Of a DNA stretch of 64,000 nt, positions 18,369-64,000 are shown piece after piece; positions within the stretch are counted from its first letter, which is position 1; the number at the start of each line of letters is the position of its first letter. The DNA is from Bacteroidales bacterium (GTDB lineage: Bacteria > Bacteroidota > Bacteroidia > Bacteroidales > UBA12077), in the NCBI GenBank assembly GCA_013138975.1, contig WTBR01000065.1, positions 43,750 to 107,749 on the forward strand. The letters are read 5' to 3'. The translations under genes were made by a program, and so were the position numbers. The notes below the pieces were generated by a model, which ran no database searches, had not been told where the DNA came from, and saw only the letters and a program-made list of their open reading frames with translations.

Positions 18369-18420
18369 TTTTATTCTTAAATAATAATATTTTATGTCAG
18401 AATAGAATCTGACTCCCTTT

Positions 18421-18604
18421 AACACCAATTAAACACCAAAATAACCGATATAATTCGTTTCTTTTTCATTTATATTTCTTCAAAAAATAAACCCTTAGCT
18501 ATACTTCGACAAAGCTCAACACGGGTGGCTATGTTTGGATTTTTTGAATCGTCTAAGCAAAAAATAATTCAAATTATTTATAAATCATTTTGAAATTTAA
18601 TTGA
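18421..18604 (+). repeat. Intergenic repeat rep1, copy 1
   Basis: Aligns with 62441..62599 in the same orientation. Shared blocks are aaacaccaaaataa..atataattcgtttctttttca.ttatatttcttcaaaaaa and tttttgaatc.tctaagcaaaaaataattcaaattatttata...cattttgaaatttaattg. Confidence 0.8.
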
Positions 18605-18864
18605 TATAAATACTAATTATTTACTCATCTTTTTCAGGCTTATCTTTTCAAGCATTTAAATTAACTCTCAAAACATTTTTAACCTTAAAAGATTCAGTTT
18701 TTATTTATTTTCATAAAAGATTGTGCGACAGTTGTTATTAATAAAATAGAATTAGATGTTATACAACAGTAGTTAAATTATATACAATAAGTGCTCTCTG
18801 AATAGTCATTTTTTAACAATCTTATTTATATTTGCGCCAATGTTTCACAAAACCGCAGTAAAAG

Positions 18865-20034
18865 ATGAACAAAAATATTAGTAAATACTTCTCAGTCGCT
18901 ATTCTATTAATTTATATTGGATTATTTTATATTTTATATCCAATTATTGGAAACACTTTTATAATTTTTTCAATAATACCTGTATTGTGTTTTTTATGGG
19001 CTTTCAATCTTAAATATGGATTATCCTTACAATTAGTTTTAATCATTCACAGATTTGTAGCCTTTAAAATTTTAGGAGAGGACATTCAAGTTTTATTTTC
19101 ACTTGCTTCAATAATTGGCACTTCTTTAAATATCATATTGTTATTTAAAACAAACTATTTGAAAAATTTGATTCAAAGAACTAAAAAGATAGAGGAAACA
19201 TTAATATTACAAAATAAAGAACTGCAAATCACGAAAGCAAAAGCTGAAGAAAGCGACCGATTAAAAACATCATTTCTAGCTAATATGAGTCATGAAATAC
19301 GAACTCCGATGAATTCAATTCTAGGCTTTTCGCGATTATTAAAAGTAAAAGATTTATCACAAGAAGAAAAAGATACTTACTGCGATTTAATTGAAACGAG
19401 TGGAAATCATCTTGTGAAATTGATAGATGGAATAATTGATATTTCAAAAATTGAATCAAATAAACTACCTATTATTGAAAACGAGTGTAACCTAAAGAAT
19501 TTATTATCCGATTTAAATCTTCTTTTTCAATCATCCGAAGAAATAAAAAATAACGCCCAAGTTAAATTATCGATTTGTAATAATTTGTCAAATGATGATA
19601 ATATTATAATTACAGACGAATTACGATTACGTCAAATATTAACGAATCTAATTGAGAATGCGGTTAAGTTTACACACTCGGGTTCAATAATAGTGGAAAA
19701 CTCAATTAAAAACAGCAAGGAGTTACTATTTACAATAAAAGACACAGGAATTGGTATTTCCGATAACACATTACCTATAATTTTCAATCACTTTCGTCAA
19801 GGTGAGGAAACCATTTCAAGGGAATATGGAGGAACAGGTCTTGGACTTGCAATTTCAAAAGCCTGTGTAAATCTTTTAGGTGGTGAAATCGGGGTTAGAT
19901 CAGAACTCAGAAAAGGTTCTACATTTTATTTTACAATTCCTTATAAACCCCTTATAAAGAGAAAAATTAAAAATAAGAATAAAAAAAATCTGCAATTAGA
20001 AAATATATTAGTTAAAGAAGAAGCCATGTGCTAA
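18865..20034 (+). CDS. Membrane-bound sensor histidine kinase (HisKA + HATPase_c) with no adjacent response regulator
   Basis: About 4 N-terminal TM helices, a coiled linker, the H-box SHEIRTPMNSILGF, N-box LTNLIENAVKF and G-box GGTGLGLAIS. Confidence 0.9.
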   Translation: MNKNISKYFSVAILLIYIGLFYILYPIIGNTFIIFSIIPVLCFLWAFNLKYGLSLQLVLIIHRFVAFKILGEDIQVLFSLASIIGTSLNIILLFKTNYLKNLIQRTKKIEETLILQNKELQITKAKAEESDRLKTSFLANMSHEIRTPMNSILGFSRLLKVKDLSQEEKDTYCDLIETSGNHLVKLIDGIIDISKIESNKLPIIENECNLKNLLSDLNLLFQSSEEIKNNAQVKLSICNNLSNDDNIIITDELRLRQILTNLIENAVKFTHSGSIIVENSIKNSKELLFTIKDTGIGISDNTLPIIFNHFRQGEETISREYGGTGLGLAISKACVNLLGGEIGVRSELRKGSTFYFTIPYKPLIKRKIKNKNKKNLQLENILVKEEAMC

Positions 20035-20268
20035 GCCCTTAATTCTACTTTACGACTTTAATGTTTATTTGACTAAGTCCGTCATTCTCGCCTACCTAAG
20101 CACATTATTCGGCGAGCAGGTATGGCGAATTATAAAAGTATAGAACATTGGACTCAAAACATATCAAGTTATATAGAGAGAAAACTCTGAAAAAACAAGG
20201 TGAAGAATTTAGGAAAAAGTATAATTTTAAGAAGATTATGGGCTAAAGTCCAACCTTAATTAGTTTTT

Positions 20269-20422
20269 GCAAGAAAACTCCAAATTACTCACAATCACTT
20301 TCAATTTTCAAAGGTGTTCGTGAGCTTCGCTAAGTTCTGCGTTATTCTTTTTTTGAAAACTTCGAAAGCTTTGTCTTTGAAGCCTTCTTGACAAAGACAG
20401 TAAAAAAGAGTAGTTTTCTTGC
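20269..20422 (+). mobile_element. MITE-like structured repeat rep2, copy 1 (154 bp, 10-bp terminal inverted repeats)
   Basis: TIRs are gcaagaaaac (20269..20278) and gttttcttgc (20413..20422). Internal hairpins are ctcac..gtgag and tctttga..caaagac. It is homologous to 62635..62862. Confidence 0.5.
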
Positions 20423-20699
20423 TGACACTAATTAGCGTATAATACTACGGCATAAATGCCGTAGTTAGTTAGAATTTTTTATACTTAAAATGTCAAAAAA
20501 AGCACTAAAATATTTGTTTAACCAAATGGCTTTACCTTTAGGCGGAGTAAGAAAGTAACAAAATGAATGAGCTTTAGCCCAACAAATTATAATAAAAAAT
20601 AAAATTAATAACTCTGTCCTTCCTAACTGCCTTTGGTATGTCAGACAAGATAAAGCATACGAATTAAATTATGAAGTTATTAATATCTTCTTCAAAGTT

Positions 20700-51200: not shown

Positions 51201-54200
51201 CATCTTTTATTTTAGTAAGCTTCACGTTAAACTTAACCTGATCATGTATCTTTTGAACTGGTTGTTCATCTATTATTTCAAAACTAGTTCTGAAACTTTC
51301 ATGACGTTCTATAAGCCTATCTATAACTTGAGTTATTTTTTCCTTATTTATTTCTTGCGATAACTCAATAACACCCGGTAAATTATAAGCAATACTATCT
51401 TTGTTTAATTGTTGAAGAAAATATATCCTTTTTTGAGCTGAAGATAAGTTATAATATGATTTCTCAGGAGCTTTTGAAATAGTTAAGAAACTTTCCTTAG
51501 ACGAAGATTGTATCCTATCTGATAATTTTTTTATTGTTTGATATTGGAATACTTCAATTAATCTTAATTTTACTTCAAATTTTTTATGAATTTTCGATAT
51601 TAATAAAGTCGCTCTTAAAGAGTGTCCTCCTAAAGTAAAGAAGTTATCTTCTATTCCAATTTGATTTGCATCAATGTTTAGTATTTCTGACCAAATTTCC
51701 GTTAAGCATTTTTCAAGCTCATTTGTTGGAGGAGCATAGTCTTCTCCCGCTTCAATTTTTGGAACTGGTAATGCCTTTCTATTTATTTTTCCATTTGGTG
51801 TTAGCGGAATAAAATCCAATTCTATGAAAAATAAAGGGATCATATAGTCAGGTAGAGTTTTTGACAGGTGATCTCTAATTGACTTTATAAGTTCTTGTTT
51901 TCTTAAACCAGCAACAAAATAAGCACAAATAAATTTTTCTCCCTTATCATCTTCGCGATCTATAACAACTACTTGTTTTACTTGTTTTAGTTCAAGAATA
52001 CAGTTTTCAATTTCATTAAGTTCGATTCTAAAACCTCTAATTTTAACTTGATGATCTATACGTCTTAGAAATTCAATATTTCCACTTTTATGGTGTCGTA
52101 CCATATCACCGGTTTTAAATATTTTTGAATCAGACAACTTATTTTCTACAAATTTCTCATGAGTAAGTTCCGGCTGGTTTAAATATCCTCTTGACAAACC
52201 ATCACCTGAAACACATAATTCCCCGGATATGCCCATTGGAACAGGGGTTCCTTGATCATCTAAAATAAAAGTTTTTAGATTAGATAATGGTTTCCCAATA
52301 AACATTGGTAAACCGTTATTTACATAAATCTTATTACTGCTACTATTTTCTTTTAATAATAACTCTTTTATTTTTTCGAGTTCTATGGTTGAATTGTTTT
52401 CATCAAAAAGTTCATTTGCTATTTCCATTTGATTTTCCAGAACCCTAAATATATCCTGATATGTTGTTAATGGATTCGACAAAACTACTCTAAGTACTAC
52501 AACATCTATTTCTTTTGCGTATTTTGTATGGGTAAGTGTTGTTTTTGAAACAAAAGTTTCACCTTTGTAAAATTGATGATTTTGTAATTTTAAATTTACT
52601 TCATTAATTTCATTCTGATATTTATTTAAATCATTTTTATTAGCAATCATATCCCTGAATTTTTCAGGAATATATCGATAACAAACAATGTTTAACTGAG
52701 GTTTCATAATGAGTTCAAAGCAATCCAAAGTTTCTATTAGCTTAGATAAAAATACAGATGAATTAATTCCTTGCTCAATTAAGGATGCATATCCCTTTTT
52801 TCCAATAAGATGAAGAGAAGCATGCAAACTCATAGAAATTGCTGATCTTGAACCTTCAATTGTAAATCGCCCTGTATCAAATGAATTATTAGTAGCTTGA
52901 TAATTAGCAGTAACAGAACCGTACTGCAATAATTTCGGGTCTTTAAATAAACAAACACTTATGCCTTGTGGCAAATAAAGTTGTTTATGACCACAGAATG
53001 TAATTGAATCTGAAAGCTCTATACCATTTAATCTGTTGGCAAATTTCTCTGAAAACATAGTTGCTCCACCCCAAGCGGCATCCACATGAAAATGGATATT
53101 AAACTCTTTGGCAAGCTCTCCCATTTCCACTAATGGATCTATTTCTCCTGTTTCTGTTGTACCTGCTATTGCAACTATTGCAATAATTAACTTCTTACTT
53201 TTATTGCATTCAATAATAATAGATCTAAGGTTATCAATATCTAACTTCCCATCTTTATTGTAATCAGCATAAATAATATTATCGGTTCCCATTCCAAGAA
53301 TCGACGCTGATTTCTTTATGGAATAATGCATTAACCTTGATCCAATAATTACCATATCATCATAGCCATGTTTCTCTAATGCTTTATAAATACTGTGTTG
53401 CATTACAGTATTATTTTCATCTAATGCAAGCAATTTTTTATTTCTTGCTGCAAGCATTGCGGAAATGTTGGATGTAGTACCCCCGGTTGAAACTATTCCC
53501 AAGTTTGTATTAACTGTTTGTATATATTCAGAATAAAATTCATCATTAAATGAATAAAATAAACGATGAAGTATAGCAAGTGCCTCCCTTTCAACAAATG
53601 TTAAGGATTTTGAAGTTTCTATTTTTACCAAATTTTGATTTAGTTGGGAAATCAGTTTACTAAAATCATTTACAAAATCGGGTAATGCAGAGGTCATATG
53701 ACCTATATTCTGTGGCGCTGCTGAATTAATAACAAATGGTAATATGTCTTTATAAAGGATCTTGTTATATTCATCTAAGGATATTGGATAATCTGGGGCT
53801 GTACTTTTCTTAAACCTATTTGCTATTGAATCCAAACTAACATTTGGCATTGTAATAGCTCCAGGTTTTAAAATATCTATGGCTGGATTTATATGAATAT
53901 TCTTAAAATATTTATGAACATCCTCAATATAAAACCTTGTTACTTCGTGATATGTTGCATCTGCACTAACTTCAGATGAACCATAAACATTTATTAGTTT
54001 TGAATTTGTAAATTCTTTATAAAACTCTTCTGCTAAATCTAAATTTAAAGCTTCGCCACTACAAAATACATATTTTAAACTTTTTAAGATCTCCCTATTC
54101 TGCTTTATTGAAATAATTGTCTTTAAGAAAGAAGGAACTAATACAGTTCTAGTAATCTTATATTTATCTAATAAATCGATAAATATTTCGATGTCTTTTG

Positions 54201-59502: not shown

Positions 59503-59798
59503 AATGATTTCTTATGATAAGATGATAAAGAATATATTATTTAATATCCGCAAGTATATTTTCATTCATTTAGATATTAAGTAATTAGCCGTACCTCGAT
59601 TAACTACTATAGATGACATGAAACTATAACCAACTTGCTGATTATTAATAAATCCGTGCCACGCTTTGCGGATTTAAGATATTAATTTAAATATTTATTT
59701 TATATTGAATTCCCTATGCTAAACAGAGTTAATCAATATGAAATTTGATGATACAGTGTTTTTAAGAATAGAGGAAACTTACTTCAACAATAGTCTAT

Positions 59799-62396
59799 TT
59801 ACACTTCTACTTCTTCTGATATATTCTCCATTTCCACTCCTTGAAAAATTAGCATCGCATATTCTAAAATTGTTGGTGCCTCAAAAACTTTAACTAAAGG
59901 AATATTTACATCAAATTCTTTATGAACTTTAGCTGTTAAAATTGTTGCTTTTAGGGAATGTCCTCCAAGATCAAAGAAATTTGCATTGGTACTTAATTTC
60001 TCTTGAGGTATTTTAAATAAATCAGACCATATCTTAACGAGTTTCTCTTCTGTTTTATTTGCCGGAGCAATGTATTCTTCCTGAACTTTCATTTCAGGTG
60101 TCGGAAGAGCTGTTTTGTTTATTTTTCCATTACTATTTAATGGCAGACTGTCTAACTCAACAAAATAAGACGGAATCATATAGTCAGGTAATGAATTTTT
60201 TAAATAAGCTTGTAACTCTGCTTGATTAAATTGTTCTTTACCCTCAAGGTATGCGCATAAGTACTTATCATCGTTTTCCTCCCTAACTATAACTACACAA
60301 TTCTCAACATTCCTATTTTTATTGATTGCATTTTCTATTTCTCCAAGCTCAATTCTAAAACCTCGAATTTTTACTTGATCATCAATCCTACCTATAAACT
60401 CCATATTACTATTAGGAAGCCAACGAGCAAGATCGCCTGTACGATATAATTTTTCTCCCTCAATAAACGGATGTGCGATAAATTTTTCATTGGTTAATTG
60501 CTCCTTGTTCAGATAAGCTTTCGCTAAACCTACACCAGAAACACATAACTCTCCCGGGATACCAATAGGCTTTAGCTGTTCACTATATTTATCCAATATA
60601 TAAACCTGCATATTATTAATAGGCAATCCTATAGGCACATTCGTTTCTTTATTATTATCATATTTATAAATCATACAACCTACTGTTGCTTCGGTTGGGC
60701 CATACTCATTATAAATTATAACTTCAGGATTCTTCTCTGTTATATTTCGACATAAATTAGAGTCCAATAATTCACCACCAACAATAAATTTATTAATACT
60801 GGTTGTTTTGTTTTTTTCTAAAAGCTGACTAAATACACGTAAATGTGATGGCGTAGCCTTTATTATGTTTACTTGGTCTCTTAGAACCATATCCTCAAGT
60901 ATTTCCAGAACATCTCCTTCAGGGTAAATTATTATTTTATTACCAGATAATAATGGTAAATAAATTGATGAAATGGTTAAATCAAAACTCATACTGGTAT
61001 ACAATGGCATACTAACTTCTTGTGAGTCTATATAATGATGTATTCCCCATTGTACATAATTAACTAAACTGGAATGAGCTATAACAACTCCTTTTGGTAT
61101 ACCTGTTGAACCTGATGTATAAATGATATATGCAGGATCATTCGATGAATACTTTATTTCTATGTTTTCACATGATCCTGAATATATATTAGGATCACTC
61201 ATGTCAAGCAGATTGTTCGATGGAATCCCTTGAAGGTTATTCGTGTTTTGAGTAATCAATTCAGAATGCGAAAGCAAAATTGACAATTCACTATCTTCAA
61301 TCAAATATTGTTTTCTGGAATTCGGGTAGTTTTTATCTATAGGCACATAAACACCTCCAACCTTTAATGTCGCTAAAATTGCAATAATTGAATCAATTGA
61401 TCGATTCAACATTATACCTATTCTCGAACCTACTTCTGCACCCTTACTTTGTAATAAATGGGCTAACTGATTCGATTTATTGTTTAAGTCTCTGTAATTT
61501 AATCGTTGTCCTTGAAATTCCAATGCAATATTGTCAGGAGATTTTTCAACCTGTGCTTCGAACAAATCAATTATCGTCTTATTATCTGAATAATTTGCCT
61601 TTGTTTCATTATTTTTTTGCAATTGAGCATATTTATCTTCATCATTGATAAGATCAATCTCTGCTAAAGGCTTATCTATATTTTCATAAAAAGATTCAAG
61701 AACCTTAGAATAAAAATTAAATAATTTTACTATCGTTTCATCTTTATAGAAATTAGAATTATATTTTATTTTGCATGATAATGAATCATTATTTACTGAA
61801 AATGAAAATAGTAAGTTAAATTTTATGTTGCTTAAATAATCCTCTGTTTGTAAGTTTTCTAATATTATTCCTATATCAAAAAACGGATAAAAATCATCTT
61901 TCTCATATGGTATCTTAAGCTTCTTTATTATATGTTCAAGAGGATAATTTTGATTTTTATTCGCTTCGATAATAATATCTTTTGTTTTTAATAATAACTC
62001 TTTAACACTTTGCTTTTCATCTACATTATTACGTAATACAAGAATTGTATTAATGAAATTTGCCCCACTTGTCTGCTTATATATAGATGTTCCTATTGAA
62101 ATGTCATTTTCAAAAGAATGCTTACGGATTAAAATAAACAATGCTGTTTTTAAAATAAATTGCAATTTTAAATCAGATCCTTTGCTTAACTTATTTATGC
62201 TTGAAAATATTTCATTTCCTATTTCAAATTCCAAATACTTGTATTCTGTTGTTTTGGTTTTAACATCAGGAAAATCACTTGGAAAATTACTTTTTTTGAA
62301 ATCTTCACCTAGTATTTTTAACCAATACTGCATTTCTTCTTGTTCTTTTTGAACTAATATTGTTGTTTTATCTGCATTCAATTTCTCGTCTTTCAT
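59799..62396 (-). CDS. NRPS module, 865 aa: (C-terminal-lobe-only C-like region)-A(Asn/Asp-like)-T
   Basis: The N-terminal ~250 aa align only with the post-HHxxxDG half of C domains (QYWLKILGEDF..FPSDFP ~ YWLKKFSDEIP..LPLDYSRP). A cores are YTSGSTGIPKG, NEYGPTE, YRTGDLARW and NGKINK. The carrier is FFDLGGHSLKA, followed by the acidic tail ENISEEVEV. Confidence 0.95.
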   Translation of the reverse strand: MKDEKLNADKTTILVQKEQEEMQYWLKILGEDFKKSNFPSDFPDVKTKTTEYKYLEFEIGNEIFSSINKLSKGSDLKLQFILKTALFILIRKHSFENDISIGTSIYKQTSGANFINTILVLRNNVDEKQSVKELLLKTKDIIIEANKNQNYPLEHIIKKLKIPYEKDDFYPFFDIGIILENLQTEDYLSNIKFNLLFSFSVNNDSLSCKIKYNSNFYKDETIVKLFNFYSKVLESFYENIDKPLAEIDLINDEDKYAQLQKNNETKANYSDNKTIIDLFEAQVEKSPDNIALEFQGQRLNYRDLNNKSNQLAHLLQSKGAEVGSRIGIMLNRSIDSIIAILATLKVGGVYVPIDKNYPNSRKQYLIEDSELSILLSHSELITQNTNNLQGIPSNNLLDMSDPNIYSGSCENIEIKYSSNDPAYIIYTSGSTGIPKGVVIAHSSLVNYVQWGIHHYIDSQEVSMPLYTSMSFDLTISSIYLPLLSGNKIIIYPEGDVLEILEDMVLRDQVNIIKATPSHLRVFSQLLEKNKTTSINKFIVGGELLDSNLCRNITEKNPEVIIYNEYGPTEATVGCMIYKYDNNKETNVPIGLPINNMQVYILDKYSEQLKPIGIPGELCVSGVGLAKAYLNKEQLTNEKFIAHPFIEGEKLYRTGDLARWLPNSNMEFIGRIDDQVKIRGFRIELGEIENAINKNRNVENCVVIVREENDDKYLCAYLEGKEQFNQAELQAYLKNSLPDYMIPSYFVELDSLPLNSNGKINKTALPTPEMKVQEEYIAPANKTEEKLVKIWSDLFKIPQEKLSTNANFFDLGGHSLKATILTAKVHKEFDVNIPLVKVFEAPTILEYAMLIFQGVEMENISEEVEV

Positions 62397-62440
62397 AATT
62401 AGATCATAATTTTTTAATAAATAATTTCTAGAGTTTTATT

Positions 62441-62599
62441 AATACCAACTAAACACCAAAATAAGCTATATAATTCGTTTCTTTTTCACTTATATTTCTT
62501 CAAAAAAGAAAATCGTAACTACTGCTATGCTAGTATTTTTTGAATCATCTAAGCAAAAAATAATTCAAATTATTTATAGCTCATTTTGAAATTTAATTG
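62441..62599 (+). repeat. Intergenic repeat rep1, copy 2 (inside the NRPS gene spacer)
   Basis: Aligns with 18421..18604 in the same orientation. Confidence 0.8.
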
Positions 62600-62634
62600 G
62601 CATAACTCTTAATATTTTCACCTATATAGTGTTT

Positions 62635-62862
62635 GCAAGAAAACGCCAAATTACTCACGAGTTTAATAATTATAAAATTGTGTTCGTGAGCTTCGCAAGG
62701 TTCTTCGTTACTCTCGTTTTGAAACCAGTTACTTCGACAGGCTCAGCACATAGCATTCACAAAAGTGAACTCCTTGGTTTTCAAAATCTCGAATTCCGAT
62801 AACTATCGGAACGTCTTTGACGCTTTCTTATCAAAGACTATAATAATATGTAGTTTTCTTGC
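62635..62862 (+). mobile_element. MITE-like structured repeat rep2, copy 2 (228 bp, carries an extra REP-like insert)
   Basis: TIRs are gcaagaaaac (62635..62644) and gttttcttgc (62853..62862). It has the same internal hairpins as 20269..20422, plus about 74 extra bp containing cttcgacaggctcagcac. Confidence 0.5.
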
Positions 62863-62884
62863 AGGCTCTATATAGTTTGGTTTC

Positions 62885-64000
62885 TTAAAATTCAAAATCA
62901 ACATCCTGTTGATCAAAAGGGGAACTAACTTCTGTCATTCTACTCATTAAATTAATATCATTTATCTTAACTGCATTACTATTTACAATTTGTTTAAAAT
63001 ATAATATAAATTGTTCTATTGTTTCAGGTTTAAATAATTTTGTACTATATACAAAACTTAACATTAATTGATCTCCATAATCAACAGTAGATAAGGTTAA
63101 ATCAAATTTGGAAGTTCCAGCATTATGAATCAAACATTGATTGTTAAAGTTTGATAAATCACCACTATATTCGTCCTGATTTAAAACATTAAACACAACA
63201 TTAAATATTGGATTATGACTAATGTTACGTTCTACAGATACTTGCTCTACTAAATCCTCAAACTGATAATCTTGATGCTCAAATGCTTCAAGGGTATTTT
63301 GTTTTAATTTACGTAAATACTCTTTTAAAGTATCGCTTCCTTTTACTTCATTCCGCATTACCAAAGTATTTATAAATAGTCCTACTATATTCTCCAAATC
63401 AACATGACTTCGACCTGCTATAGGTGTTCCTACAATTACATCCTCTTGACCTGTCAATTTGGAAAGGAGTATTGTGAAAACAGATAAAACTGACATGTAA
63501 AGAGTTAATTCATTTTCTTTTGTCAGTAATTTTATAATTTTTGTTTCTTCTTTACTTAATGTAAAACTAACAATGGCACCATCAAAGCTTTTCTTATCAG
63601 GACGAGTATAATCTGTAGGTAACTCTAATGCAGGAATTTCACCTTTAAATCTATTGATCCAATATTGTTCTTGTTTTTTTACTTTAACCTTCTGTTCTTC
63701 ACTGTCCTGCCATTCACTAAAGTCTTTATATTGCAACTCTAAGGGAGGTAAATCTTCACCTAAATACAGTTTCTGGAATTCTTGTTTTAAAATTACGCGT
63801 GAGACTCCATCACTTATAATATGATGCATATCTACCATTAACAAACTATCTTTTCCTTTGATTTCAACTATGGCTACTCGTAAAAGAGGTGCTTGAGTTA
63901 AATCAAAAACTTGTGTGAATTTGTTAAGGGTAGTTTGTTTTTCTGTTTCTTCAATCTTAAAGTTTTCAACTTTAAAATCTACATGATCATGTATGATCTG
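62885..64000 (-). CDS. NRPS, 5'-partial (continues beyond the right window edge); the visible part is a complete C domain followed directly by a stop
   Basis: The reading frame is open from 64000. The tracked TTG at 63844 is internal (..APLLRVAIVEIKGKDSLLMVDMHHIISDG..). The C domain is highly similar to the other C domains here and ends ..KINDINLMSRMTEVSSPFDQQDVDFEF*. Confidence 0.93.
   Translation of the reverse strand, partial: QIIHDHVDFKVENFKIEETEKQTTLNKFTQVFDLTQAPLLRVAIVEIKGKDSLLMVDMHHIISDGVSRVILKQEFQKLYLGEDLPPLELQYKDFSEWQDSEEQKVKVKKQEQYWINRFKGEIPALELPTDYTRPDKKSFDGAIVSFTLSKEETKIIKLLTKENELTLYMSVLSVFTILLSKLTGQEDVIVGTPIAGRSHVDLENIVGLFINTLVMRNEVKGSDTLKEYLRKLKQNTLEAFEHQDYQFEDLVEQVSVERNISHNPIFNVVFNVLNQDEYSGDLSNFNNQCLIHNAGTSKFDLTLSTVDYGDQLMLSFVYSTKLFKPETIEQFILYFKQIVNSNAVKINDINLMSRMTEVSSPFDQQDVDFEF

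What the first reader, a model, noticed from the sequence alone, without database searches (positions are those of the whole stretch)
62397..62884. NRPS gene junction occupied by two repeat elements; the upstream gene stops exactly where the C-A linker should continue
The partial NRPS gene ends ...VDFEF-TAA (stop at 62885..62887). At the equivalent point the intact modules read:
- LFEFNKTKTNYPKDKTI
- LYEFNNTKAEYPKDKTI
- LFDFNDTKMEYPVEKSI
- LIDFNKTVESYPKDKTI

In frame after the stop, the next codons still read E-T-K-L-Y (62870..62884). The sequence then runs into the right terminal inverted repeat of the MITE-like element (62853..62862). This looks like a residual A-domain N-terminus cut off by the element.

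The 488-bp spacer consists almost entirely of rep1 (62441..62599) and rep2 (62635..62862) and has stops in all frames.

The result is a synthetase protein that terminates in a C domain with no cognate A-T. Two explanations are possible:
- The assembly line was broken or rewired by repeat-mediated insertion or deletion.
- It is a genuinely split module, with the terminal C acting in trans on the following A-T protein.
Basis: partly seen in the sequence, partly recalled or inferred. Interest (0 to 1): 0.65.

Follow-up and report, generated by a model that had tools for sequence, protein, structure and literature searches.

The report
Two MITEs in split NRPS spacer
Two small mobile DNA elements sit in the gap between two neighbouring peptide-synthetase genes, but a sister strain without them has the same stop codon and the same two genes, so this is a naturally split enzyme module and not a gene broken by the elements.

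Summary
The coordinates and repeats are real. The genes lie on the minus strand. The upstream NRPS gene ends in a complete condensation (C) domain (stop 62885-62887). 86% of the 488-bp spacer is two inverted-repeat elements.

The "cut by the element" reading fails. A sister-strain contig (L002, 95% protein identity) has the same stop and a 79-bp element-free spacer, collinear with what remains here once both elements are removed. rep2 (62629-62868) is a true MITE. It has a 6-bp TATATA target duplication, a single TATATA at the empty site, and dozens of copies in Bacteroidales MAGs. The "L-Y" of E-T-K-L-Y is encoded by that target site, and the similarity is not significant (P=0.12).

The downstream protein is not A-T. 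It is a truncated C domain (C-terminal lobe only, no HHxxxDG) followed by A-T. This lobe has dN/dS 0.12, the same as the A domain, and is modelled packed on the A core as in EntF.

In 9 of 10 informative unrelated clusters, such a protein follows a subunit ending in T-C. The best reading is an ancestral split module, with the terminal C acting in trans (inferred), that later received two MITE insertions. This is ordinary, with a moderately interesting junction type.

The parts
62885..64000 (-). 3' part of the upstream NRPS gene, which runs off the window. It encodes a complete, apparently catalytic C domain (HHIISDG) ending ...VDFEF, with stop TAA at 62887..62885.
   Evidence: Translation. Pfam Condensation 3e-90, profile 72-432/456. 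48-56% identical to the five internal C domains of the same cluster.
62875..62884 (-). Native spacer next to the stop (GAAACCAAAC on the minus strand). This is the 'E-T-K' part of the supposed remnant.
   Evidence: Collinear with the L002 empty-site spacer. A 1-nt indel relative to L002 breaks the frame.
62869..62874 (.). Target-site duplication TATATA, copy on the stop-codon side of rep2.
   Evidence: The same hexamer occurs at 62623-62628. The L002 empty site has a single TATATA. TANNTA duplications flank about 25 other copies.
62629..62868 (.). rep2: a 240-bp MITE with imperfect 16-bp terminal inverted repeats (GTGTTTGCAAGAAAAC ... GTTTTCTTGCAGGCTC).
   Evidence: Second copy in the window at 20263-20428 with TAATTA duplication. 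A 26-mer from the left end matches 34 places in GTDB genomes, most of them in one Bacteroidales MAG and others in a Saccharicrinis MAG. Absent from L002.
62623..62628 (.). Target-site duplication TATATA, second copy.
62606..62622 (-). Native spacer between the two elements (GGTGAAAATATTAAGAG.. on the minus strand).
   Evidence: Matches L002 GGTGAAAATATTAAGAGTT.
62437..62605 (.). rep1: a palindromic, MITE-like element of about 167 bp with terminal inverted repeats (TTAATACCAACTAAA / TTATGCCAATTAAA). The limits are uncertain by a few bases and the target duplication is unresolved (possibly TA).
   Evidence: 77% identical to 18419-18622. Folds as one long hairpin. Absent from the L002/L003 empty site, where it splits a small AGAGTTT..AAACTCT palindrome. 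The Logan assembly of the same strain breaks inside it (L001).
62397..62436 (-). Native spacer next to the start codon of the downstream gene.
   Evidence: Aligns with L002 and L003 upstream of the ATG.
61611..62396 (-). Truncated C domain (C-terminal lobe only, aa 1-262) at the N-terminus of the 865-aa protein. It has no HHxxxDG.
   Evidence: Pfam Condensation profile 190-452/456. dN/dS 0.12 against the sister strain. pLDDT about 85-94. The whole model superposes on holo-EntF C-A-T with TM 0.87.
60123..61562 (-). Adenylation domain (aa 279-758) of the 865-aa protein.
   Evidence: Pfam AMP-binding and AMP-binding_C.
59856..60047 (-). Thiolation (carrier) domain (aa 784-847) of the 865-aa protein. 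The gene ends at 59799.
   Evidence: Pfam PP-binding.
18419..18622 (.). Second copy of rep1, in an intergenic position.
20257..20434 (.). Second copy of rep2 with TAATTA target duplications. It is shorter and lacks the segment equivalent to 62725-62812.

Best explanation
The junction is an ancestral, maintained subunit boundary inside one NRPS module. The upstream protein ends with a complete C domain. The next gene encodes the rest of the module as a separate protein: a C-terminal-lobe remnant of a C domain, then A, then T.

In the lineage of this window, two non-autonomous mobile elements (rep2, a TANNTA-duplicating MITE, and rep1, a palindromic MITE-like element) inserted into the pre-existing spacer of about 75-80 bp. 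This stretched it to 488 bp without touching either coding sequence.

SHOWN
- The insertions are secondary.
- The stop codon and the two-gene arrangement predate the insertions.
- The truncated C lobe is under purifying selection.
- The same [..T-C] / [truncated C-A-T] arrangement recurs in unrelated clusters.

INFERRED
- The terminal C condenses the upstream chain in trans onto the amino acid carried by the T domain of the 865-aa protein.
- The retained C lobe serves as the structural platform of the A domain, and possibly as the contact for the upstream subunit.
- Transcription reads through the two elements, which would fold as large hairpins in the mRNA.
For: 1. Empty site. L002 and L003 (Logan SRR25180550 and SRR25180567; orthologue 95% identical) read ...DQQDVDFDF-TAA, then 79 bp, then ATG, with neither element. 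Removing both elements and one TATATA from the window spacer leaves a sequence collinear with that 79 bp.

2. rep2 is mobile.
   - It has 6-bp TANNTA duplications in about 25 copies.
   - A 26-mer from its end matches 34 places in Bacteroidales and Saccharicrinis MAGs.

3. The truncated C lobe is not decaying. Between the two strains (dS 0.17), dN/dS is 0.12 for the lobe and 0.11 for the A domain.

4. Predicted structure. The model has pLDDT 85.4 and pTM 0.77. It superposes on holo-EntF 5T3D with TM 0.87 and rmsd 3.7 A, so the lobe sits on the A core where a normal C lobe does.

5. Recurrence. A megasynthase ending in T plus a full C lies upstream of a truncated-C-A-T(-TE) protein in the window and in L004, L005/6, L009, L010, L045 (two consecutive junctions), L047, L060 and L061. 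L007/8 is the only exception.

6. In L060 and L061 the truncated-C protein carries the terminal TE. It must therefore receive a chain from a C domain in trans.

7. Frequency among relatives.
   - 32 of the 120 nearest relatives start (with Met) with a truncated C, most of them at profile positions 180-188.
   - In a 1.84-billion-protein profile search, 44 of the top 150 start that way, and 29 of those 44 also end in a full C.

8. Published precedents.
   - Polymyxin PmxA is described with four modules. [quoted passage not shown] That PmxA therefore ends in the C domain of that last module is my reading and recollection, not quoted from the paper.
   - The roughly 300-aa N-terminal extension of the ramoplanin stand-alone A-T module is required for trans-complementation (PMC8949500).

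9. Within this cluster, ordinary T-to-C subunit junctions use TubC_N docking domains. The junction studied here is of a different type.
Against: - There are no transcript, protein or product data. Trans condensation is an inference.
- The upstream gene runs off the window, and no full-length copy was found. Its own start, and any release function, are unknown.
- In L007/8 a truncated-C-A-T protein follows a subunit ending in A-T. The published ThdA has a truncated C in a true starter module. The lobe is therefore not strictly tied to a trans-acting C.
- Subunits ending in a full C are common in this NRPS neighbourhood: 20% of the hits and 51% of the top hits. The 9-of-10 association is enriched but less extreme than it looks.
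- The two elements would form very stable RNA hairpins (z = -7.6). No Bacteroidetes-type -7 motif lies in the spacer on the coding strand. Expression of the downstream genes in this strain may therefore be impaired.
- The target duplication of rep1 could not be resolved.
Confidence: 0.7

Rival explanations
1. Two assembly lines meet here. The 865-aa protein would be a loading module whose truncated C is the inactive 'C*' seen in some starter modules. The upstream terminal C would be a chain-terminating or otherwise unrelated C domain. The spacer would then be an ordinary intergenic region between functionally separate genes.
For: - A truncated N-terminal C* in a genuine starter module is published for ThdA (PMC7253712).
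- L007/8 shows a truncated-C-A-T protein after a subunit ending in A-T.
- The upstream gene is incomplete in the window.
Against: - 9 of 10 informative loci have a full C at the end of the preceding synthetase.
- In L060 and L061 the same kind of protein carries the TE and cannot be a starter.
- Both genes are on the same strand, only 79 bp apart in the empty-site strain.
- A terminal C with no acceptor nearby would be left unexplained.
Confidence: 0.2
2. The elements, or recombination between them, cut a once-continuous C-A-T... gene, deleting A-T and the N-terminal lobe of the next C domain. E-T-K-L-Y would be the residue of the lost A-domain N-terminus.
For: - The stop lies exactly at the C-A linker.
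- The downstream protein starts with half a C domain.
- 86% of the spacer is repeat elements with their flanking duplications.
Against: - The sister strain has the same stop and the same start without either element.
- rep2 has a clean target duplication of the native spacer, so it is a simple insertion.
- E-T-K-L-Y is not significant (P=0.12), is out of frame in the sister strain, and partly lies on the target site.
- The truncated C has dN/dS 0.12.
- The same architecture occurs in distant clusters that lack these elements.
Confidence: 0.03
3. The split is ancestral, but the double insertion has uncoupled or silenced the downstream genes in this strain through a polar effect. The cluster here would be functionally broken even though every ORF is intact.
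For: - The spacer grew from 79 to 488 bp.
- The RNA is predicted to form two large hairpins (-132 kcal/mol, z = -7.6).
- No TAnnTTTG motif lies on the coding strand in the spacer.
Against: - No intrinsic-terminator-like site is present.
- All large ORFs are intact.
- MITEs within operons are often tolerated (general knowledge).
- Nothing here measures expression.
Confidence: 0.15
4. Misassembly: the repeats caused two unrelated contigs to be joined.
For: Short-read assemblies of the same strain break inside rep1 (L001 starts within it).
Against: - L002 joins the end of the upstream gene directly to the 865-aa gene in an independent sample without repeats.
- Native spacer segments in the window lie in the expected order between and beside the elements.
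Confidence: 0.02

Closest known systems
Polymyxin synthetase PmxA / PmxB split final module (Paenibacillus polymyxa)
   Same: One elongation module is divided between two proteins. [quoted passage not shown] I infer, and recall, that PmxA also carries the C of that last module. The system is functional, so a C|A split can work in trans.
   Different: - It belongs to a different phylum and product.
- Whether PmxB starts with a C-lobe remnant could not be checked here. Its size suggests about 200 extra N-terminal residues, but this is my inference only.
- The primary paper was not held.
Truncated 'C*' domain at the N-terminus of NRPS modules (e.g. ThdA of thermoactinoamide)
   Same: An N-terminal partial C domain directly precedes an A domain, is judged catalytically inactive, and is proposed to influence the A domain through the C-lobe/A interface (PMC7253712).
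   Different: ThdA is a true loading module with no upstream T-C subunit. Here the lobe follows a subunit that ends in a complete C.
Ramoplanin / enduracidin stand-alone A-T modules with a ~300-aa N-terminal extension
   Same: A separate A-T protein works in trans with the main assembly line. For ramoplanin, the N-terminal extension is reported to be required for that trans-complementation (PMC8949500).
   Different: The extension is described there as having no substantial homology to known sequences. In that system the main line has a defective A domain rather than no A-T at all. The sequences were not compared here.
XU / XUC exchange-unit boundaries used in NRPS engineering (A-T-C units; fusion point between the two C-domain lobes)
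   Same: The natural protein starts at the hinge between the C-domain lobes (profile position about 185 of 455). Many relatives run from a truncated C to a terminal full C. These are the same breakpoints that engineers chose. This comparison rests on my own knowledge of the concept.
   Different: Those are engineered fusions within one polypeptide. Here the upstream C is complete, so its C lobe is present in addition to the remnant.
Bacterial MITEs
   Same: Short size, no coding capacity, terminal inverted repeats, target-site duplication, many dispersed intergenic copies, and presence/absence polymorphism between strains.
   Different: No autonomous parent element with the same ends was found, so the IS family is unassigned. 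rep1 has only two observed copies.

Membership tests
MITE (rep2) | Terminal inverted repeats | tested here: met
   GT(C/G)(T/G)(T/C)TGCAAGAAAAC at both ends, 13 of 16 matching, in the window and in MAG copies.
MITE (rep2) | Target-site duplication, with an empty site carrying a single copy | tested here: met
   TATATA flanks the element on both sides and occurs once in L002. TANNTA pairs flank about 25 other copies.
MITE (rep2) | Multiple dispersed copies and no coding capacity | tested here: met
   34 matches to a 26-mer in GTDB genomes, most of them in one Bacteroidales MAG, plus 2 copies in the window. Length is 166-253 bp. Stops occur in all frames.
MITE (rep2) | Autonomous IS partner with the same ends | tested here: not met
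   Copies lacking an exact right end were degenerate or truncated MITEs, not transposase-bearing elements. Only 8 kb around each match was available.
MITE (rep1) | Inverted repeats, target duplication, multiple copies | tested here: inconclusive
   - Terminal inverted repeats and a whole-length hairpin are present.
- It is absent at the L002/L003 empty site.
- There are only 2 copies in the window and none in 272 kb of MAG loci.
- The duplication is unresolved (possibly TA).
Split NRPS module with trans-acting C (PmxA/PmxB type) | Upstream subunit ends in a complete C domain with the catalytic motif | tested here: met
   Pfam profile 72-432/456, HHIISDG.
Split NRPS module with trans-acting C (PmxA/PmxB type) | The next subunit supplies A-T but has no catalytic C | tested here: met
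   The 865-aa protein has C profile 190-452 only, no HHxxxDG, then A, then T.
Split NRPS module with trans-acting C (PmxA/PmxB type) | The split is conserved and not a lesion | tested here: met
   Same stop and start in the sister strain. dN/dS 0.12. Same arrangement in 9 of 10 informative loci.
Split NRPS module with trans-acting C (PmxA/PmxB type) | Condensation in trans between the two proteins | not testable with these tools
   Needs biochemistry or product analysis.
N-terminal truncated C (C-lobe) - A unit | Only the C-terminal lobe is present, starting at the inter-lobe hinge | tested here: met
   HMM start 186 of 455 in the window protein. Starts are 180-188 in about 26 relatives.
N-terminal truncated C (C-lobe) - A unit | The lobe keeps the canonical packing on the A core | tested here: met
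   This is a prediction only. The AF2 model superposes on holo-EntF with TM 0.87 and rmsd 3.7 A over 890 columns.
Disrupted / pseudogenised NRPS gene | An element-free relative has one continuous ORF, or there is remnant coding sequence in the spacer, or constraint is relaxed | tested here: not met
   The relative has two ORFs and the same stop. The remnant similarity has P=0.12 and its frame is not conserved. dN/dS is 0.12.

The most novel reading that the evidence does not exclude
The [..T-C] / [C-lobe-A-T..] boundary may be a widespread, so far undescribed class of NRPS inter-subunit junction.

- The retained C lobe, besides stabilising the A domain, would be the recognition element for the upstream terminal C.
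- The junction would be a preferred slot for tailoring genes. B12-radical-SAM, ATP-grasp or PP-loop-like genes sit exactly there in L005, L009, L047, L060 and L061. In this window the same slot holds mobile elements.
- Many giant synthetases (29 of 44 in the top profile hits) both start with the lobe and end with a full C. Whole assembly lines would then be cut in this A-T-C register.
- The same hinge boundary appears to have been reached at least twice. The lobe of P0002 is a canonical C lobe, 48% identical to normal C lobes and 24% identical to the window's lobe.
Probability: 0.3. Interest if true: 0.6.

Novelty: new member of a known kind. Interest (0 to 1): 0.35.

Why it matters
For this locus, the result removes a false lead. 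The cluster is not visibly broken, and the repeats are recent passengers in a spacer that tolerates them.

More generally, the comparison shows that nature repeatedly cuts NRPS assembly lines after the C domain while keeping a selected C-lobe remnant in front of the next A domain. This is the register that engineers use for exchange units and for split ('type S') synthetases.

If the lobe proves to be a docking or platform element, it could be a portable part for building NRPSs from separately expressed subunits. It could also improve the rules by which genome-mining tools order subunits in Bacteroidota clusters.

The strain pair with and without the MITEs is a natural experiment on whether such insertions affect operon expression.

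Tried and rejected
- Protein-guided scan of GTDB genomes with the 865-aa protein found no relative. The source species or cluster is not among the representatives.
- Homologue search with the upstream C fragment gave a best hit of 64% identity and no full-length copy of the upstream gene. Its architecture beyond the window stays unknown.
- Exact look-up of the 865-aa protein returned only a 2.8-kb contig that breaks inside rep1.
- A metagenome scan with a 20-mer from the end of the upstream gene gave 12 hits. All were chance matches with no homology to the junction.
- Rfam found no family anywhere in the window.
- rep1 has no copy in 272 kb of MAG loci. Its family and target duplication remain open.
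- The search for an autonomous element with rep2 ends found only degenerate MITEs.
- A composite transposon made of the second rep1 and rep2 copies was rejected. The gene between them is a histidine kinase, not a transposase.
- Promoter and terminator scans of the spacer found nothing above shuffles and no terminator. No Bacteroidetes -7 motif lies on the coding strand.
- A recent tandem duplication of the upstream C lobe as the origin of the truncated C was rejected. The two are only 26% identical. P0002's lobe is likewise only 23% identical to its own upstream C.
- The primary polymyxin cluster paper was not held.
- The profile search of 1.84 billion proteins ranks by summed score and is dominated by giant multi-module proteins. 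It gives architecture counts but not a clean family size.

Full report
WHAT IS THERE

The window is 30% G+C. All the synthetase genes lie on the minus strand.

The ORF that runs off the window at 64000 ends ...SSPFDQQDVDFEF-TAA, with the stop at 62887..62885. Pfam sees one complete Condensation domain in it (profile positions 72-432 of 456, E = 3e-90), and the catalytic HHIISDG motif is intact. It is an ordinary C domain for this cluster, 48-56% identical to the five internal C domains.

The next ORF (62396..59799, 865 aa) starts 488 bp downstream. That spacer has 10-15 stops in every frame.

THE DOWNSTREAM PROTEIN IS NOT A-T

Pfam finds Condensation again at residues 17-255, but only profile positions 190-452. 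AMP-binding, AMP-binding_C and PP-binding follow. The protein thus starts with the C-terminal lobe of a C domain and lacks the N-terminal lobe and HHxxxDG.

The rest of the cluster is as follows:
- a 3741-aa NRPS with an N-terminal TubC_N docking domain and an embedded PLP-decarboxylase-like domain;
- a KS-AT-KR-ACP PKS;
- a TubC_N-C-A-T-C-A-T-TE protein.

The conventional T-to-C subunit junctions of this cluster therefore use TubC_N docking domains, and the junction under study is of another type.

THE REPEATS

BLAST of the spacer against the window confirms both repeats:
- 62439-62617 matches 18419-18622 (77%);
- 62627-62724 plus 62813-62870 match 20261-20430.

rep2 has ends GTGTTTGCAAGAAAAC...GTTTTCTTGCAGGCTC (62629-62868) and is flanked by TATATA on both sides (62623-62628 and 62869-62874). 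The second copy is flanked by TAATTA.

A 26-mer from its left end matches 34 places in GTDB genomes. Most are in one 6.7-Mb Bacteroidales MAG contig. Others are in a Saccharicrinis MAG (Marinilabiliaceae) and in two further Bacteroidales MAGs. About 25 of those copies show the same ends and a matching 6-bp TANNTA duplication. No transposase-bearing partner was seen. rep2 is therefore a genuine MITE, and the window most likely comes from a bacterium of Bacteroidales/Marinilabiliales affinity.

rep1 (about 62437-62605) has terminal inverted repeats and folds as a single long hairpin. Only two copies were seen, and its target duplication is unresolved.

As RNA, the spacer would form two large hairpins, one per element (-132 kcal/mol, z = -7.6). 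No terminator-like site was found, and no Bacteroidetes-type -7 motif lies on the coding strand.

THE DECISIVE COMPARISON

The 865-aa protein has a 95%-identical orthologue (P0001) on two short Logan contigs from other samples. L002 reaches 116 bp upstream of the ATG and reads:

...GATCAACAGGATGTTGATTTTGATTTT-TAA-AACAACCAAACTATATAGGTGAAAATATTAAGAGTTTAGGAAACTCTAAAAGTTATTTATTAAAATTTATTATATAATT-ATG

The features of this sequence are:
- the same C-terminal peptide (..DQQDVDFDF);
- the same stop;
- a 79-bp spacer with a single TATATA;
- neither element.

L003 agrees over its 52 bp. Deleting rep1, rep2 and one TATATA from the window spacer leaves a sequence collinear with those 79 bp.

The elements landed in a pre-existing intergenic region, and the stop and the gene split are older than the insertions. 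The contig also shows, independently of any repeat, that the two genes are adjacent, which answers the misassembly worry.

E-T-K-L-Y

- At the nucleotide level, the 30 nt after F-E-F match the best of the five linkers at 14/30. 12% of random 30-mers from the window do as well, while the linkers share 16-23/30 with one another.
- The L-Y codons lie on the TATATA target site.
- A 1-nt indel in L002 moves the conserved ACCAAACTATATAG out of frame with the upstream ORF, whose in-frame continuation there reads N-N-Q-T-I-stop.
- The similarity is therefore not evidence of a truncated A domain.

IS THE TRUNCATED C A RELIC OR A PART?

- Selection. Between the window and L002 (dS = 0.17), dN/dS is 0.12 for residues 1-260, 0.11 for the A domain and 0.32 for the T domain and tail. 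The lobe is as constrained as the A domain.
- Structure. An AlphaFold2 model built on 22 homologues is confident (pLDDT 85.4, pTM 0.77; lobe blocks mostly 85-94). It superposes on holo-EntF (5T3D, C-A-T-TE) with TM 0.87 and rmsd 3.7 A over 890 columns, and on the Txo1/Txo2 C-A didomains. This is a prediction, but it places the lobe on the A core where a normal C lobe sits.
- Divergence. The lobe is only 21-25% identical to any full C domain tested, including the one just upstream. It is not a recent duplicate.

RECURRENCE ELSEWHERE

Of the 120 nearest relatives of the 865-aa protein, 32 start (with Met) with a truncated C. Most begin at profile positions 180-188 within 4-41 residues of the N-terminus.

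The gene neighbourhoods I could fetch were these:

- Window: preceding synthetase ends in T plus full C. No gene in between.
- L004: ends in T plus full C. 66-bp spacer.
- L005/6: ends in T plus full C. B12-radical-SAM gene in between.
- L009: ends in T plus full C. B12-radical-SAM gene in between.
- L010: ends in T plus full C. No gene in between.
- L045: ends in T plus full C at two consecutive junctions.
- L047: ends in a full C; the Pfam scan of its last 599 residues listed no PP-binding hit. B12-radical-SAM gene in between.
- L060: ends in a full C; only the C-domain model was run on this protein, and the precomputed Pfam list gives PP-binding before Condensation. PP-loop-like gene in between. 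The truncated-C protein carries the TE.
- L061: the preceding gene is cut by the contig start; its 493-aa fragment ends in a full C. ATP-grasp gene in between. The truncated-C protein carries the TE.
- L007/8: ends in A-T. This is the only exception.
- L046: cut by the contig end, so uninformative.

That is 9 of 10 informative loci. A truncated-C-A-T-TE protein is a final module and must receive its chain from a C domain on another protein.

A profile of the lobe searched against 1.84 billion proteins found 85,241 hits. Among the top 150, 44 start with the lobe, and 29 of these also end in a full C.

One caveat applies. Subunits ending in a full C are common in this neighbourhood (20% of the hits, 51% of the top profile hits). 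The association is enriched but not overwhelming.

P0002's lobe is a canonical C lobe, 48% identical to normal lobes, 24% to the window's lobe and 23% to its own upstream C. The same hinge boundary seems to have been reached more than once.

MECHANISM

Shown:
- two mobile-element insertions into an older spacer;
- an ancestral and selected two-gene arrangement.

Inferred:
- The terminal C of the upstream protein condenses its chain onto the aminoacyl-S-T of the 865-aa protein in trans.
- The chain then passes through the TubC_N-docked next subunit and onward to the TE.
- The lobe keeps the C-lobe/A-core platform, which published work links to A-domain activity and selectivity (cited in PMC7253712). 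It may also contact the upstream subunit.

Published precedents:
[quoted passage not shown] That PmxA ends in the C domain of that module is my reading, not a quotation.
- The roughly 300-aa N-terminal extension of the ramoplanin stand-alone A-T module is required for trans-complementation (PMC8949500).

My searches of the held literature found no description of the combined [T-C]/[lobe-A-T] junction as a class. That search was not exhaustive.

VERDICT

This is a naturally split NRPS module whose spacer has picked up two MITE-type elements in one strain. It is a new member of known kinds: a split module with a trans-acting C, an N-terminal truncated C, and intergenic MITEs.

The recurring junction type is the part worth a specialist's attention. 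The effect of the insertions on expression is open.

Noticed in passing
L005 6337-7977; L009 6302-7978; L047 6374-7987; L060 2490-3590 and 6895-7995; L061 1556-2791: In five unrelated clusters, a tailoring-type gene (B12-binding radical SAM, ATP-grasp, or a PP-loop-like 366-aa protein with an SGGVDSS motif) sits exactly between the subunit ending in a full C and the protein starting with the truncated C. In L045 a radical-SAM/B12 domain is embedded inside the A domain instead. The split may exist to let the carrier-bound amino acid be modified before condensation.
   Followed up: partly
representative proteins P0241-P0390: Many giant NRPS proteins (3,300-7,000 aa) both begin with the truncated C lobe and end with a full C (29 of 44 lobe-initiated proteins in the top 150). 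Whole assembly lines appear to be cut in an A-T-C register instead of the textbook C-A-T register.
   Followed up: partly
L004 10001-12643 (P0002): The truncated C of P0002 is a canonical C lobe. It is 48% identical to ordinary internal C lobes and only 23-24% identical to the window's lobe and to its own upstream C. It starts at the same hinge position, which suggests independent or recombinational origin of the same boundary.
   Followed up: partly
window 59503-59798: The spacer between the 865-aa gene and the next NRPS gene is 296 bp here and 150 bp in the sister strain L002. About 146 extra bases lie directly after the stop. They have no other copy in the window or in the MAG loci.
   Followed up: partly
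window 52672-53754 (minus strand; aa 1917-2277 of the 3741-aa NRPS): A PLP-dependent decarboxylase-like domain (Pyridoxal_deC, 5.6e-49; weaker Aminotran_5 and Beta_elim_lyase hits) is embedded in the large NRPS. This is an unusual in-line tailoring domain.
   Followed up: no
window 18419-18622 and 20257-20434: The second copies of rep1 and rep2 lie in the same order and orientation as at the junction. Here they are 1.6 kb apart and flank a histidine-kinase gene (18865-20034). The gene is not a transposase, so this is not a composite element.
   Followed up: yes
window 62725-62812: The junction copy of rep2 carries an internal segment of about 88 bp that the copy at 20263-20428 lacks. MAG copies range from about 130 to 253 bp, so the family has internal length variants with conserved ends and a conserved GTCTTTGA..TCAAAGAC hairpin near the right end.
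   Followed up: partly
L002 72-88 (empty site); window 62430-62436 and 62604-62609: rep1 inserted into the loop of a small palindrome in the native spacer (AGAGTTT-AGG-AAACTCT on the coding strand). In the window the two arms are separated by the element.
   Followed up: no
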